This document shows positions 18,802 to 22,644 of a DNA stretch of 64,000 nucleotides, piece after piece. Source of the stretch: Anaeromyces robustus (lineage: Eukaryota); NCBI GenBank assembly GCA_002104895.1, contig MCFG01000018.1, positions 62,001 through 126,000 on the forward strand, in the 5' to 3' direction. How positions within the stretch are numbered: position 1 is the stretch's first letter; the number at the start of each line of letters is the position of its first letter. The translations under genes were made by a program, and so were the position numbers. The notes under the pieces are model-generated. The model did no database searches. It was not told where the DNA came from and worked only from the letters and a program-made list of their open reading frames with translations.

Positions 18802-20458
18802 ATGAATGAAAATGATTTGAATGTTGTAGCGTCCTTCACTAAGGTATTTTTAACATTATTTATTCACTGTATTTTTTTTTATATATTTTATACAAGTATT
18901 CTTAATTATAAAAAATTCTAAGAAAATTATTTATATTAGTAAATTGCTTATGGATAATTTTGTTTTTAAATAATTATATTAATTGGTTAAAAGATATCAA
19001 ACATAAGATAAGAAAGATAAAAAAAAAATAAAATAAAAAACTATAAATAATTAATAAAATTGTTTTAAAAAGTAAATGTCAAATTATATTACATTGAAAA
19101 AGTAATGACTGTATTATAGTAAATAAAAAATATCAATAATTAAATATATATATATTTATATAATAAAGTACTATACATTTATTAAAAAAATAAATGTAAT
19201 GAATAAATAAATATATTTATAAATAATACCTAAATAAAATTAAATAAATATAATAAAATAAATAATAAAATATTGTAAATGAGGAGTAATAAAGTGCAAA
19301 TATTAAATAAAATAAAATAAAATAAAATAATGTAAATCCTTTATCATATAAATGAATTATAATATATTAAATAAAATTAAATAAAATGTAAAGAATCACA
19401 ATGATAGTTAATTATTATAATTAAAAGAATAATATGTTAACCCATGACCTATGTATTATAATTATTTGTAATAATTAAATATGATAAATGGATGTAGATA
19501 TTTATCATAAAAGCTTAAAATTAATAAAATTTAAAGAATAATAATTTACTTTCTATTAATTGATATGTTAAATGTTTATTTTATATTTATATTAGCGTGT
19601 CGAGGACCTCCATTCTGGCAAAAAGAGATCCCATCGTATTAGACGTATTCGTCACCGCGCTCAAAAGCGTTCTCGTAAAAATAAGTCTTCTTTACAAAAA
19701 CAAAATTTAGAAATTGTTGAACAAACCATTGAACAAAAACCAATTGAAGTTATTGAAGATATTTCTGTTACTGAAAATGTATATAATAATTATTAAATTA
19801 ATATTCAAATAAATGTGTCAAATGTTAATATTTAAAAAAAAAAAATTTATTTTATACTGTTATTTATTTTATTTATTAATTATCAATTAATAGAATATCT
19901 CCAAAACCGAACTTGTTATTCCACCAATTCCAAAAGTTGAATCTATTAATAAAACCAATATTGAAAAGACTGACGTTGTTAAGGAAAAGTCTATGAAAAT
20001 GTATGAAAGAATTATTTTATAATATAATATTTTAATATTTTTTAACATATATATATATATATAAACATCATAGAAATAAAATTTTTCAAAAACTTATAAA
20101 AATATAACACTTTTTATAATATATATAAATTAATTAGTGAAAAGAAAATTAATGAACTTTCAAAGGTTAGAAATTCTCTTCCATTAGTAGATCTTTGTCG
20201 TGATAGACGTCGTCGTATTTCTTCAATTAAGAGAAGTTCAACTGAAAATATCACTAGAAATGATATTGCTAAGGCTCTTAAACCAAATTACTCAGTTCAA
20301 AAAACTGCTTTAAAACAATCATTTATGCCAACTTGGGCTAAATTCTCTCTTTCATGGGTATAAATAATATATTTTAGATATTATTTTATTTTATTATTAT
20401 TTATCATATGTCTTTTTTTTTTTTTTTTTGATCATATTGATAGATTATTAAATTATGG

Positions 20459-20490
<32 letters not shown>

Positions 20491-20594
20491 ATATTACTTT
20501 ATAGAATGATGAAAGTAGTATTCTCGATTCTTTAAGAAACGTTAAAATTAATTCTAGTTTAAATAATTTACCATTAATTACATTAGCCGCATAA
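18802..20594 (+). CDS. Unannotated 5-exon ORF (~213 aa from ATG 18802; ~238 aa if started at CTG 18727) immediately upstream of TRP2; exons 18802-18843, 19596-19778, 19894-20000, 20138-20357, 20505-20594
   Basis: GC-richer blocks bounded by canonical GT..AG join into one open frame (phases 0,0,2,0): MNENDLNVVASFTK-RVEDLHSGKKRSHRIRRIRHRAQKRSRKNK...-...LPLVDLCRDRRRRISS...FMPTWAKFSLSW-NDESSILDSLRNVKINSSLNNLPLITLAA*. No family recognised. Confidence 0.78.
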
Positions 20595-20622
20595 ATAATT
20601 AATTTTTAAAAAAATAAGAATA

Positions 20623-22644
<2,022 letters not shown>

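What the first reader, a model, noticed from the sequence alone, without database searches (positions are those of the whole stretch)
18802..20628. Hidden spliced leader ORF whose stop codon shares a splice-bounded segment with the TRP2 start codon
Seen: segment 20505-20628 has an acceptor at its 5' end and a strong GTAAGT donor at its 3' end, and holds both the TAA of the upstream ORF and ATG-AGT of TRP2. The ~213-aa product is unrecognised, has an Arg/His/Lys cluster (KKRSHRIRRIRHRAQKRSRKNK), and its only two Trp residues sit close together ~30-36 codons before the stop (PTWAKFSLSW). Inference: a long uORF or leader cistron controlling TRP2 translation, possibly Trp-responsive by analogy with bacterial trpL/tnaC or the fungal arginine attenuator peptide, or an RNA-binding regulator.
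Basis: partly seen in the sequence, partly recalled or inferred. Interest (0 to 1): 0.85.

Follow-up and report, generated by a model that had tools for sequence, protein, structure and literature searches.

The report
Conserved polycistronic tryptophan mRNA in fungi
In this gut fungus and its chytrid relatives, an unknown conserved protein gene sits on the same spliced messenger RNA directly in front of the tryptophan-pathway gene TRP2, an operon-like layout that is rare in eukaryotes.

Summary
Exon 20505-20628 is bounded by a used acceptor and a used GTAAGT donor. It carries the last 29 codons and TAA (20592-20594, not 20593-5) of an upstream five-exon ORF, a 28-nt spacer, and ATG-AGT of TRP2. 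Public RNA runs support it: raw reads for three introns, spliced contigs for all.

The ORF ("orfX") is not a short leader peptide. It is a conserved, mostly disordered protein; every named member is from Neocallimastigomycota or Chytridiomycota. It probably starts at a CUG (18727) 25 codons upstream of the ATG.

Wherever gene order can be read, orfX lies directly upstream of TRP2: nine chytrid genome assemblies and six anaerobic-fungus sequences. The trifunctional TRP gene (GATase-IGPS-PRAI) usually follows. Spliced cDNA contigs of three other species carry all three ORFs, with spacers of 25-29 and 26-87 nt; a fourth, cut short, carries the first two (22 nt).

Leaky scanning is excluded, because 11-18 AUGs precede the TRP2 AUG. 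Synonymous sites are unusually conserved in the shared exon and at the 3' end of TRP2, but not at the end of the last cistron. I read this as an ancient polycistronic trp mRNA whose downstream cistrons are translated by reinitiation. Translation itself is untested. A Trp-sensing role is neither refuted nor supported.

The parts
18436..18659 (+). Intron in the 5' leader of the orfX-TRP2 transcript (GT..AG)
   Evidence: Joint 18433>18658 (cut +2): 23 and 28 raw reads, 1 contig in X1.
18727..18801 (+). Probable CUG-initiated N-terminal extension of orfX (25 codons, LARTILRFGWFSASKSLSSRSFSWT). The CTG at 18727-18729 sits in an ACC-CTG-G context.
   Evidence: an in-frame stop lies 6-13 codons upstream and there is no ATG, in 5 of 5 species. 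14 of 19 variable columns are at codon position 3. Synonymous:nonsynonymous is 65:20 in frame against 7:72 and 2:78 out of frame; dN/dS 0.065 with dS 0.56. The matching motif lies at or near the N-terminus of chytrid homologues P0011, P0020, P0022 and P0025, and internally in the fused model P0023.
18802..18843 (+). orfX coding exon 1 from the annotated ATG
   Evidence: identical to P0002.
18844..19595 (+). orfX intron 1
   Evidence: Joint with 76 and 105 raw reads, plus contigs in X1 and X3.
19596..19778 (+). orfX exon 2 (VEDL motif and basic cluster RIRRIRHRAQKRSRK)
19779..19893 (+). orfX intron 2
   Evidence: Joint with 168 and 212 raw reads.
19894..20000 (+). orfX exon 3 (variable linker, dN/dS 0.94)
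20001..20137 (+). orfX intron 3
   Evidence: Spliced in contigs X1 record 1 and X3 record 4. The raw-read joint row is not shown.
20138..20357 (+). orfX exon 4 (PLVDLCRDRRRRISSIKR helix and PTWAKFSLSW)
   Evidence: The helix has pLDDT above 90.
20358..20504 (+). orfX intron 4 (T-rich)
   Evidence: Spliced in X3 record 4. Raw depth in bins 20336-20423 and 20424-20511 is 31-40 and 10-14, which the exon bases in those bins explain. The same intron is present in L005.
20505..20628 (+). Shared exon: the last 29 orfX codons, TAA, the spacer and the first two TRP2 codons. Synonymous sites here are unusually conserved.
   Evidence: Codons vary at 3 of 24 amino-acid-invariant degenerate positions against 46 of 104 elsewhere in orfX (P=0.0045). 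dS is 0.12 against 0.30-0.56 elsewhere.
20592..20594 (+). orfX stop codon TAA
   Evidence: frame check.
20595..20622 (+). Intercistronic spacer 1: 28 nt, A-rich, no ATG
   Evidence: 22-29 nt in 5 transcripts; 0 ATG in 404 nt of all 9 spacers against 2.8 expected (P=0.04); 69% A.
20623..22644 (+). TRP2 (anthranilate synthase component I, 504 aa). Exons 20623-20628, 20733-20943, 21241-21363 and 21470-22644.
   Evidence: Pfam PF04715 and PF00425. Joint 20628>20733 has 81 and 95 reads. The loose end at 20943 reads on into 21241. The N-terminus matches the family consensus.
22645..22741 (+). Intercistronic spacer 2: 97 nt, A-rich, no ATG
   Evidence: It is 26-87 nt in L001-L003.
22742..25129 (+). 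Trifunctional TRP gene (GATase-IGPS-PRAI, 795 aa, no intron)
   Evidence: Pfam PF00117, PF00218 and PF00697. It is on the same cDNA contig as orfX and TRP2 in L001-L003.

Best explanation
The finding is the first cistron (orfX) of an ancient, spliced, operon-like tryptophan mRNA of zoosporic fungi, ordered orfX - TRP2 - trifunctional TRP (G-C-F). The organism is Anaeromyces robustus.

Shown:
- orfX is a real five-exon gene.
- Its last coding exon also holds the TRP2 start codon, so RNA that carries the TRP2 AUG is spliced onto orfX.
- orfX is a conserved protein family. Every named member is from Neocallimastigomycota or Chytridiomycota.
- The family lies directly upstream of TRP2 wherever order can be read.
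- In three other species all three ORFs lie on one spliced cDNA contig. A fourth contig, cut short, holds orfX and the start of TRP2.

Inferred:
- orfX starts at a CUG in an optimal context, giving a 238-aa form. The in-frame AUG 25 codons later gives a 213-aa form.
- TRP2, and probably the G-C-F gene, are translated from this same RNA. Ribosomes that terminate on the upstream cistron would resume over a short, AUG-free, A-rich spacer (termination-reinitiation or internal entry).
- A primary-sequence element in the roughly 90 nt before the orfX stop, and more weakly in the last 250 nt or so of TRP2, helps this.
- orfX is a largely disordered basic protein, co-expressed with anthranilate synthase, whose own function is tied to that pathway.

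My odds for the separate claims: bicistronic orfX-TRP2 RNA 0.9; orfX a functional protein 0.9; CUG start 0.8; conserved linkage 0.95; tricistronic RNA 0.7; reinitiation as the route to TRP2 protein 0.45.
For: Splicing and the shared exon: (raw joints 76/105, 168/212 and 81/95 reads; contig X3 record 4 of 2275 nt joins all orfX exons to TRP2; intron-4 depth about 0). No cluster of read starts is reported in exon 5 (table 6). Depth of orfX exons is 126-183 (X18) and 162-230 (X19), against 219-223 and 216-219 for TRP2 exon 2.

Exon-only words are held by 14 runs from 11 studies at shares of 0.53-0.58.

Other species: L001-L003 carry orfX, a 25-29 nt spacer, TRP2, a 26-87 nt spacer and G-C-F on single intron-free contigs of 4976-6162 nt. 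L004 carries the first two genes with a 22-nt spacer. The genomic contig L005 has the same 124-nt shared exon.

Family: 11 hits and 17 representatives in 1.84 billion proteins. All 8 hits that carry a name are chytrids, besides Anaeromyces and Piromyces.

Linkage by consecutive accessions or locus tags:
- Dinochytrium: KAJ3215735, 36 and 37 are orfX, TRP2 and GCF.
- Chytridium lagenaria: KAI8851049 and 50.
- Nowakowskiella JEL0407: KAJ3121557 and 58.
- Powellomyces: g02282 is orfX and g02284 is GCF; the TRP2 protein (TPX59674) directly follows GCF (TPX59673) in accession number.
- Gaertneriomyces, two species.
- Rhizophlyctis: HK097_001225 and 001226.
- Merged orfX+TRP2 gene models in Rhizophlyctis (P0274) and Polychytrium (P0048).

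Protein-level selection: dN/dS is 0.065, 0.063 and 0.19 in the conserved blocks and 0.94 in the linker. CUG start.

No leaky scanning: 11-18 ATGs lie before the TRP2 ATG, and 41-49 before the GCF ATG.

Synonymous constraint: exon 5, 2 of 24 against 48 of 120 (P=0.002). Last 84 TRP2 codons, 16 of 74 against 142 of 358 (P=0.003). Last 90 GCF codons, 32 of 66 against 270 of 564 (P=1).

Precedent for reinitiation after long ORFs in fungi: PMC10352335 (passages read) and PMC11952965 (abstract read).
Against: There is no evidence of translation (no ribosome profiling, no proteomics).

Short-read contigs can merge overlapping transcripts, and the tool itself warns that a contig across two genes shows no single transcript.

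I could lay reads only once and only on 18400-21030. The TRP2-GCF junction in A. robustus itself is therefore untested, and the raw-read counts for introns 3 and 4 were not shown.

An A. robustus contig of 2634 nt, and contigs of 2639-2958 nt in relatives, encode GCF alone. GCF may therefore also, or only, have its own mRNA.

Depth over exon 5 (101/147) is lower than over its flanks. That could reflect some exon skipping, or only the mapping loss expected at a short exon; exon 3 shows 0.72-0.73 of its flanks.

The ATG-free spacers are only weakly significant (P=0.04). Synonymous conservation in exon 5 could instead reflect splicing enhancers of a short exon set among AT-rich introns. The orfX function is unknown: no Pfam, PDB or Atlas lead.
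Confidence: 0.55

Rival explanations
1. Two or three overlapping but independent mRNAs. TRP2 protein comes from its own capped transcript that starts within the 118 nt between the exon-5 acceptor and the ATG. The G-C-F gene has its own transcript starting in spacer 2. The long RNAs are read-through by-products, as in mushroom-forming fungi.
For: In Agaricomycetes the co-transcribed genes are also transcribed independently (PMC4503453, abstract and passages). Contigs that encode GCF alone exist (2634-2958 nt). The bins (88 nt) cannot resolve a start site inside exon 5. Canonical eukaryotic translation favours monocistronic mRNAs.
Against: A promoter and start site would have to sit inside a 124-nt coding exon. 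Intron-4 depth is about 0, and the first 7 nt of exon 5 already account for the depth of their bin, so there is no visible step up within the exon. No start cluster is listed (table 6). TRP2 junction reads (81/95) are no more numerous than orfX junction reads (76-212). Spacers of 22-29 nt are kept in 6 sequences, while ordinary gene spacing in the window is kilobases. Linkage persists across chytrid orders.
Confidence: 0.15
2. TRP2 is made as a fusion protein. Skipping the shared exon (donor 20357 joined to acceptor 20733) is in frame and would give a 711-aa CUG-orfX(1-209)-TRP2(3-504) protein. The exon-included RNA would then serve only orfX.
For:: the skipped form is one open frame of 711 codons in the window, and is also in frame in L005. 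Annotation pipelines built just such fusions in Rhizophlyctis (..FALSW|TPFKPS..) and Polychytrium (..SLRW|AVFKPS..). Exon-5 depth is 0.53-0.67 of its flanks, against 0.72-0.73 for the equally short exon 3.
Against: All contigs seen include the exon (X1, X3, L001-L004). None of the 11 proteins found in the 'longer' search with exon 4 is a fusion. The TRP2 ATG and its A-rich context are kept in 6 of 6 sequences, and the TRP2 N-terminus matches the family consensus. The exon-5 peptide is itself conserved. The chance of being in frame is 1 in 3, and gene finders pick in-frame joins by construction. I could not look for the 20357>20733 joint, because rows over masked repeats were dropped.
Confidence: 0.1
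3. One reading: orfX translation is a Trp-responsive switch for TRP2. For example, its C-terminal PxWxxFxLxW...AA nascent chain would alter termination or reinitiation at the 28-nt spacer, or trigger mRNA decay, according to tryptophan supply. This need not exclude orfX also being a protein.
For: Linkage of the family to TRP2 holds in every case that can be read. The Trp motif is nearly invariant: P210, W212 and F215 at 90% or more of 22 sequences. At termination it would lie 6-36 residues from the peptidyl-transferase centre, which is inside the exit tunnel (tunnel length recalled). C-termini tend to end in -AA or -VA. Synonymous constraint sits just before the stop. The stop lies 34 nt before an exon junction, an NMD-prone layout (inference).
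Against: The ORF is ten times longer than known arrest peptides. Other blocks, including the far N-terminus, are under equal or stronger constraint. The Trp-to-stop distance is not fixed. The Trp codons are not tandem. No alternative hairpins were found. There are no data under Trp excess or starvation.
Confidence: 0.1
4. Artefact: chimeric assemblies or genomic DNA in the RNA libraries create the appearance of a common transcript.
For: The tool notes that DNA can be present in RNA libraries and that contigs can join genes.
Against: Introns are absent from the contigs and from raw-read depth. Reads are strand-specific: nearly all have the first mate on the - strand. The same architecture appears in 4 independent contigs of other species and in 14 runs from 11 studies.
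Confidence: 0.02

Closest known systems
Functional bicistron of Glarea lozoyensis and its intergenic sequence IGG1/IGG6 (PMC10352335, passages read)
   Same: A fungal mRNA with two long ORFs separated by a very short spacer. The downstream ORF is translated by reinitiation rather than by an IRES or a 2A peptide.
   Different: That case is a secondary-metabolite gene pair in one ascomycete. Here the genes belong to primary metabolism, there are up to three cistrons, the stop and restart lie in one spliced exon, and linkage is conserved across phylum-level distances. I did not compare the spacer sequences, because the IGG6 sequence was not in the passages I read.
Polycistronic read-through transcripts of Agaricomycetes (PMC4503453, abstract and passages read)
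   Same: Several complete ORFs of neighbouring fungal genes lie on one polyadenylated RNA.
   Different: There the genes are also transcribed independently, the long RNA may interfere with the downstream gene, and conservation fades outside the class. Here the downstream start codon lies in an exon spliced to the upstream gene, and the order is kept from chytrids to anaerobic gut fungi.
Bacterial trp operon with leader trpL (recalled, not tested)
   Same: A leader ORF containing Trp precedes trpE on one RNA. The order E, then G-C-F, parallels trpE-G-(D)-C-F.
   Different: trpL has 14 codons with tandem Trp codons and acts through alternative hairpins coupled to transcription. orfX has 213-238 codons, is spliced, is a conserved protein, and shows no conserved hairpins.
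Fungal arginine attenuator peptide of arg-2/CPA1 (recalled)
   Same: An upstream ORF whose stop lies shortly before the main AUG of an amino-acid biosynthesis gene in fungi.
   Different: The attenuator peptide has about 24 codons and stalls the ribosome at its stop in response to arginine. Nothing here shows stalling, and most of orfX is conserved for other reasons.
Viral termination-reinitiation elements such as the calicivirus TURBS and the Helminthosporium victoriae virus 190S stop/restart (recalled)
   Same: Stop and restart codons lie close together, and a conserved sequence in the roughly 90 nt upstream of the stop is needed. Here synonymous sites are conserved in just that place.
   Different: Complementarity to 18S rRNA or a pseudoknot defines those elements. 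I could not test the first, having no rRNA sequence. I found no conserved nested structure in the shared exon; pseudoknots were not tested.
Human mRNAs that encode two conserved proteins, one from a long upstream ORF (PMC13303939, search listing only)
   Same: A conserved protein is encoded upstream of, and on the same mRNA as, a second conserved protein.
   Different: Different organisms and genes. I read nothing beyond the listing.

Membership tests
Eukaryotic polycistronic (bicistronic) mRNA | Two or more complete, non-overlapping ORFs on one mature, spliced transcript | tested here: met
   Shared exon 20505-20628. Contig X3 record 4 spans orfX and TRP2. L001-L003 carry three ORFs each. Caveat: these are short-read contigs, not single molecules.
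Eukaryotic polycistronic (bicistronic) mRNA | Each ORF encodes a conserved protein | tested here: met
   orfX has dN/dS of 0.06-0.19 in its conserved blocks and has chytrid homologues. TRP2 and GCF have strong Pfam matches.
Eukaryotic polycistronic (bicistronic) mRNA | The downstream ORF is translated from that transcript | not testable with these tools
   This needs ribosome profiling, reporters or proteomics.
Eukaryotic polycistronic (bicistronic) mRNA | No separate transcript for the downstream gene | tested here: inconclusive
   TRP2: intron-4 depth is about 0 and no start cluster is listed in exon 5, but the bins are 88 nt wide. GCF: GCF-only contigs exist.
Regulatory leader or arrest peptide (trpL, TnaC, arginine attenuator peptide) | An ORF upstream of the regulated gene on the same RNA | tested here: met
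Regulatory leader or arrest peptide (trpL, TnaC, arginine attenuator peptide) | A short peptide of about 14-25 codons (sizes recalled) | tested here: not met
   213 codons from the ATG and 238 from the CUG.
Regulatory leader or arrest peptide (trpL, TnaC, arginine attenuator peptide) | Conserved residues at a fixed distance from the stop, or tandem codons of the sensed amino acid | tested here: not met
   The PxWxxFxLxW motif is conserved, but its last W lies 6 to 29 residues before the stop in different members, and the Trp codons are 6 codons apart.
Regulatory leader or arrest peptide (trpL, TnaC, arginine attenuator peptide) | Effector-dependent ribosome stalling or alternative RNA hairpins | tested here: inconclusive
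   No conserved structure in exon 5 (-3 kcal/mol, 0 compensatory pairs). Stalling cannot be tested here.
Termination-reinitiation with an upstream enhancer element | Stop and restart codons close together with no AUG between them | tested here: met
   Spacer 1 is 22-29 nt and spacer 2 is 26-97 nt. There are 0 ATG in 404 nt.
Termination-reinitiation with an upstream enhancer element | A conserved nucleotide element within about 90 nt upstream of the stop | tested here: met
   Synonymous variation is 3 of 24 against 46 of 104 (P=0.0045). It is also reduced in the last 84 TRP2 codons (P=0.003), but not at the end of GCF (P=1). Splicing enhancers are an alternative cause for exon 5.
Termination-reinitiation with an upstream enhancer element | Complementarity to 18S rRNA, or demonstrated reinitiation | not tested
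Non-AUG (near-cognate) N-terminal extension | Conserved in-frame coding sequence upstream of the first AUG, bounded by a stop, with no AUG | tested here: met
   5 of 5 species; dN/dS 0.065.
Non-AUG (near-cognate) N-terminal extension | A near-cognate codon in a strong context at the point where conservation begins | tested here: met
   CCACC-CTG-G in 4 of 5 species and TCACC-CTG-G in the window. Conservation drops immediately upstream.
Non-AUG (near-cognate) N-terminal extension | The extended protein is detected | not testable with these tools
   This needs proteomics or initiation-site profiling.
Anthranilate synthase component I (TRP2) | Anth_synt_I_N and chorismate-binding domains | tested here: met
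   PF04715 (1e-7 and 2.9e-12) and PF00425 (3.4e-92).

The most novel reading that the evidence does not exclude
Zoosporic fungi keep an ancient eukaryotic 'trp operon': leader cistron, trpE homologue, then a trpG-C-F fusion, in the bacterial gene order. The leader cistron orfX is both a protein and a cis-acting sensor. Its conserved C-terminal Trp motif and the synonymously constrained shared exon would set how often ribosomes that finish orfX restart on TRP2, and whether the RNA escapes nonsense-mediated decay. That would couple anthranilate synthase output to tryptophan supply.
Probability: 0.1. Interest if true: 0.95.

Novelty: new variant of a known kind. Interest (0 to 1): 0.78.

Why it matters
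Stable, conserved polycistronic mRNAs for primary metabolism are not expected in fungi. The known fungal cases are read-through transcripts of independently expressed genes, or single secondary-metabolite pairs.

Here the downstream start codon is built into an exon of the upstream gene. The order orfX-TRP2(-GCF) is kept from chytrids to anaerobic gut fungi, so selection has held this layout for a very long time.

It offers a natural system for asking how eukaryotic ribosomes translate a second and third long ORF. It names an uncharacterised protein family that is tied to anthranilate synthase. It adds a probable CUG start. It also corrects gene models: the truncated orfX in A. robustus, and fused orfX-TRP2 or TRP2-GCF models in several chytrids.

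For engineering anaerobic fungi, the spacers and the shared exon are candidate parts for multigene expression.

Six full-text searches found no paper describing polycistronic or bicistronic transcripts in these fungi; a seventh found none on a chytrid tryptophan gene cluster.

Tried and rejected
- Whole-genome search: no genome is held for this window.
- Complex prediction, with orfX as partner against TRP2 plus the GATase domain: verdict 'no answer', score 0.00. The controls were not run and my alignments were not used. This says nothing either way.
- AlphaFold2 of orfX with a 22-sequence alignment: mean pLDDT 56.9, mostly disordered, so no fold search was run.
- ESM Atlas: no usable hit.
- PDB profile search: 0 hits at E up to 1.
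- Pfam on single exons and on full-length members: nothing above the cut-offs.
- Rfam on 17500-25800 at E up to 0.1: 0 matches.
- Leader RNA fold: z = -1.5. An alignment hairpin just after the CUG has 1 compensatory pair and 2 broken pairs, which is too weak to claim.
- Shared-exon RNA structure: none conserved.
- L006 is a GC-rich bacterial contig and a false positive of the locus scan.
- The loose-end sequence before 18667 is not in the window, so I did not pursue an alternative 5' exon.
- Leaky scanning was rejected because of the ATG counts.
- An in-frame read-through fusion was rejected: the TRP2 ATG is in frame +1 relative to orfX.
- A larger Trp gene cluster was rejected: the neighbouring genes are unrelated, namely a PolQ-like helicase, Sas10/Utp3, DAGAT, radical SAM and a subtilase.
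Full report
**What is there.** The window has 15.8% G+C. It belongs to the anaerobic gut fungus Anaeromyces robustus: exon 4 of the ORF is 100% identical to NCBI protein BCR32DRAFT_240800.

Exons 18802-18843, 19596-19778, 19894-20000, 20138-20357 and 20505-20594 have GT..AG introns and give a 213-aa product. That product is identical to a JGI/Logan protein, P0002. The NCBI model (185 aa, ending SLSWV) simply fails to splice intron 4.

One correction is needed. The stop is TAA 20592-20594, so the spacer to the TRP2 ATG (20623) is 28 nt. 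TRP2 then continues after the GTAAGT intron at 20733. It has Pfam Anth_synt_I_N and Chorismate_bind domains and is 504 aa. After a further 97 nt comes an intron-less 795-aa GATase-IGPS-PRAI gene ("GCF") at 22742-25129.

**RNA evidence.** Fourteen public runs from 11 studies hold 0.53-0.58 of the sampled words of 18700-22700. That is roughly the exonic fraction, which by my exon coordinates is about 0.59. I laid two contig sets and two stranded raw-read RNA runs on 18400-21030 (the single call allowed).

- Raw reads in X18/X19 give these joints: 18435>18660 (23/28 reads, a leader intron), 18843>19596 (76/105), 19778>19894 (168/212) and 20628>20733 (81/95).
- The rows for introns 3 and 4 are not among the 15 shown. 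The tool states that rows at masked repeats were dropped.
- Contig X3 record 4 (2275 nt) is colinear with all five orfX exons, the shared exon and TRP2 exon 2, and carries a further 1285 nt that lie beyond the laid stretch, about the length of the rest of TRP2.
- X1 record 3 starts 10 nt upstream of 20504 and runs into TRP2.
- Depth in intron 4 is what the few exon bases in those bins explain. For example, 10-14 in bin 20424-20511, which has 7 exon bases, against 101-147 in the next bin.
- So RNA covering the first bases of the shared exon is spliced, and there is no visible step up inside the exon. No cluster of read starts is listed there.
- orfX and TRP2 depths are similar: 126-183 against 219-223 in X18, and 162-230 against 216-219 in X19.

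**orfX is a conserved protein gene.** Exon 4 finds 11 longer proteins: Anaeromyces, Piromyces finnis, unnamed relatives, and the chytrid Powellomyces hirtus. A profile search of 1.84 billion representatives finds only 17. Every hit that carries a name is a chytrid: Spizellomyces, Rhizophlyctis, Gaertneriomyces, Chytridium, Nowakowskiella, Dinochytrium.

Conserved blocks are NDLxVV..VEDL, RHRAQKR, P(L/I)VD(L/I)CRDRRRR(I/V)(S/T)xIKR and PxW(A)xF.L.W. Among five anaerobic-fungus sequences, dN/dS is 0.063 and 0.19 in these blocks and 0.94 in the linker. AlphaFold2 predicts disorder apart from a confident basic helix over CRDRRRR and two further helices. Pfam, PDB and the ESM Atlas give nothing.

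**A probable CUG start.** The 75 nt before the ATG are conserved in five species. They are in frame, bounded by a stop 6-13 codons further up, and contain no ATG. They vary almost only at third codon positions: 14 of 19 variable columns, synonymous:nonsynonymous 65:20 against 7:72 and 2:78 in the other frames, and dN/dS 0.065 at dS 0.56. Conservation begins at (C/T)CACC-CTG-G.

The peptide (LARTILRFGW..SRSF(S/T)WT) matches the start of chytrid homologues that begin with an ATG, such as MFSFRLGW..ARPFSWS. I infer a 238-aa CUG form and a 213-aa AUG form. The extension is basic, Ser-rich and free of acidic residues, like an organelle presequence. This resemblance is recalled, not tested.

**Linkage to the trp genes.** Four intron-free contigs of other species from JGI metagenome records encode orfX (208-223 aa), a spacer of 22-29 nt and TRP2. 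Three of them continue through a 26-87 nt spacer into the whole GCF gene, on contigs of 4976-6162 nt. A genomic contig of a further species (L005) has the same intron after ..SLSW and the same 124-nt shared exon. Its short TRP2 intron likewise follows ATG-AGT.

In chytrid genomes, consecutive accessions or locus tags give these orders:
- orfX/TRP2/GCF in Dinochytrium.
- orfX/TRP2 in Chytridium lagenaria, two Gaertneriomyces species and Rhizophlyctis rosea.
- orfX followed by a merged TRP2+GCF model in Nowakowskiella JEL0407.
- In Powellomyces, orfX is g02282 and GCF is g02284; the TRP2 accession directly follows that of GCF, which fits TRP2 lying between them.

Merged orfX+TRP2 gene models exist in a second Rhizophlyctis assembly and in Polychytrium. 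Merged TRP2+GCF models exist in Thoreauomyces and Borealophlyctis.

I used equal 'longest contig' length as a proxy for 'same contig'. By that proxy, TRP2 and GCF share a contig in 14 of 19 chytrid-lineage species that appear in both lists, and in 0 of 17 other fungi. The other genes of the window are unrelated and lie kilobases apart.

**How TRP2 could be translated.** Leaky scanning is out. There are 11-18 ATGs between the CUG and the TRP2 ATG, and 41-49 before the GCF ATG. The nine spacers are 69% A and hold no ATG, against 2.8 expected (P=0.04, which is weak).

The shared exon is conserved beyond its protein. Codons vary at only 3 of 24 amino-acid-invariant degenerate positions, against 46 of 104 elsewhere in orfX (P=0.0045). 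With four species the counts are 2 of 24 against 48 of 120 (P=0.002). dS is 0.12 against 0.30-0.56. The last 84 codons of TRP2 show a milder version (16 of 74 against 142 of 358, P=0.003). The end of GCF, which has no cistron after it, shows none (32 of 66 against 270 of 564, P=1). No conserved RNA structure explains this.

The pattern fits a sequence element that promotes restart after termination. Such elements are known from viruses (recalled). Reinitiation after long ORFs over very short spacers has been shown in yeasts and filamentous fungi (PMC10352335, passages; PMC11952965, abstract). For exon 5 alone, splicing enhancers are an equally simple cause.

**Rivals.**
- Independent overlapping transcripts remain possible, above all for GCF, for which GCF-only contigs exist.
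- Skipping of the shared exon would be in frame and would give a 711-aa orfX-TRP2 fusion. I could not look for that joint. No contig or database protein of the anaerobic fungi shows the fusion.
The ORF is long and is constrained throughout its conserved blocks. The Trp motif lies at a variable distance from the stop.

**Comparison and novelty.** The closest known systems are the Glarea bicistron with its IGG spacer and the Agaricomycete read-through transcripts. In the latter, the genes are also transcribed independently and conservation fades outside the class. The present case differs in four ways: the shared exon, primary metabolism, up to three cistrons, and linkage kept across Chytridiomycota and Neocallimastigomycota.

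Six full-text searches found no paper on polycistronic or bicistronic transcripts in these fungi, and a seventh none on a chytrid tryptophan gene cluster. One chytrid paper tested two unrelated genes and found no polycistronic RNA (PMC12264004, one passage). I rate this a new variant of a known kind, with high interest. What is missing is any evidence of translation and any single-molecule RNA evidence.

Noticed in passing
window 19016-19103 and 18870-18890 (inside orfX intron 1): Very high depth: contig word depth 333-673, raw depth 51-77. There are poly(A) loose ends at 19040 (61 and 75 reads) and 'opposite strands' joints 18889<->19038 (139 and 229 reads). This is probably a low-complexity or repeated element, or a small polyadenylated RNA matched from many loci.
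   Followed up: no
window 18423, 18667, 18688: Many reads leave the window sequence at these points. At 18688 they continue as 8 letters and then poly(A). The sequence that precedes 18667 is not in the window. They may come from other loci or from alternative 5' exons.
   Followed up: partly
window 20506-20535: The shared exon opens with a 9-codon mini-ORF (two ATGs, then a stop) in the same frame as the TRP2 ATG. It is identical in 5 of 6 species. Its meaning is unknown.
   Followed up: no
window 20592-20628: The orfX stop lies 34 nt before an exon junction, and two more junctions follow. On the exon-junction model this RNA would be a target of nonsense-mediated decay unless restart protects it (inference).
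   Followed up: no
window 21056-21150: A long (ATT)n microsatellite lies in TRP2 intron 2, flanked by T and A runs.
   Followed up: no
window 20623-25129: The gene order TRP2 (trpE homologue) followed by G-C-F is the order of bacterial trpE-G-(D)-C-F (recalled). The pair is linked in most chytrid-lineage genomes but in none of 17 other fungi listed.
   Followed up: partly
public gene models (P0001, P0023, P0048, P0274, P0265, P0183, P0190): Annotation errors caused by this layout. A. robustus orfX is truncated at intron 4. Dinochytrium orfX is fused to a LUC7-like 'splicing factor' model. orfX+TRP2 fusions occur in Rhizophlyctis and Polychytrium. TRP2+GCF fusions of 1281-1344 aa occur in three chytrids.
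   Followed up: yes
window 18729-18766: A hairpin is predicted to start at the G of the CUG start. It has one compensatory change between two synonymous third positions and two broken pairs among 5 species. This is too little to claim.
   Followed up: partly
window 5943-11771 (- strand): A long ORF with DEAD/Helicase_C, HTH_61 and POLQ helical domains (a PolQ-like helicase). It is unrelated to the finding.
   Followed up: no
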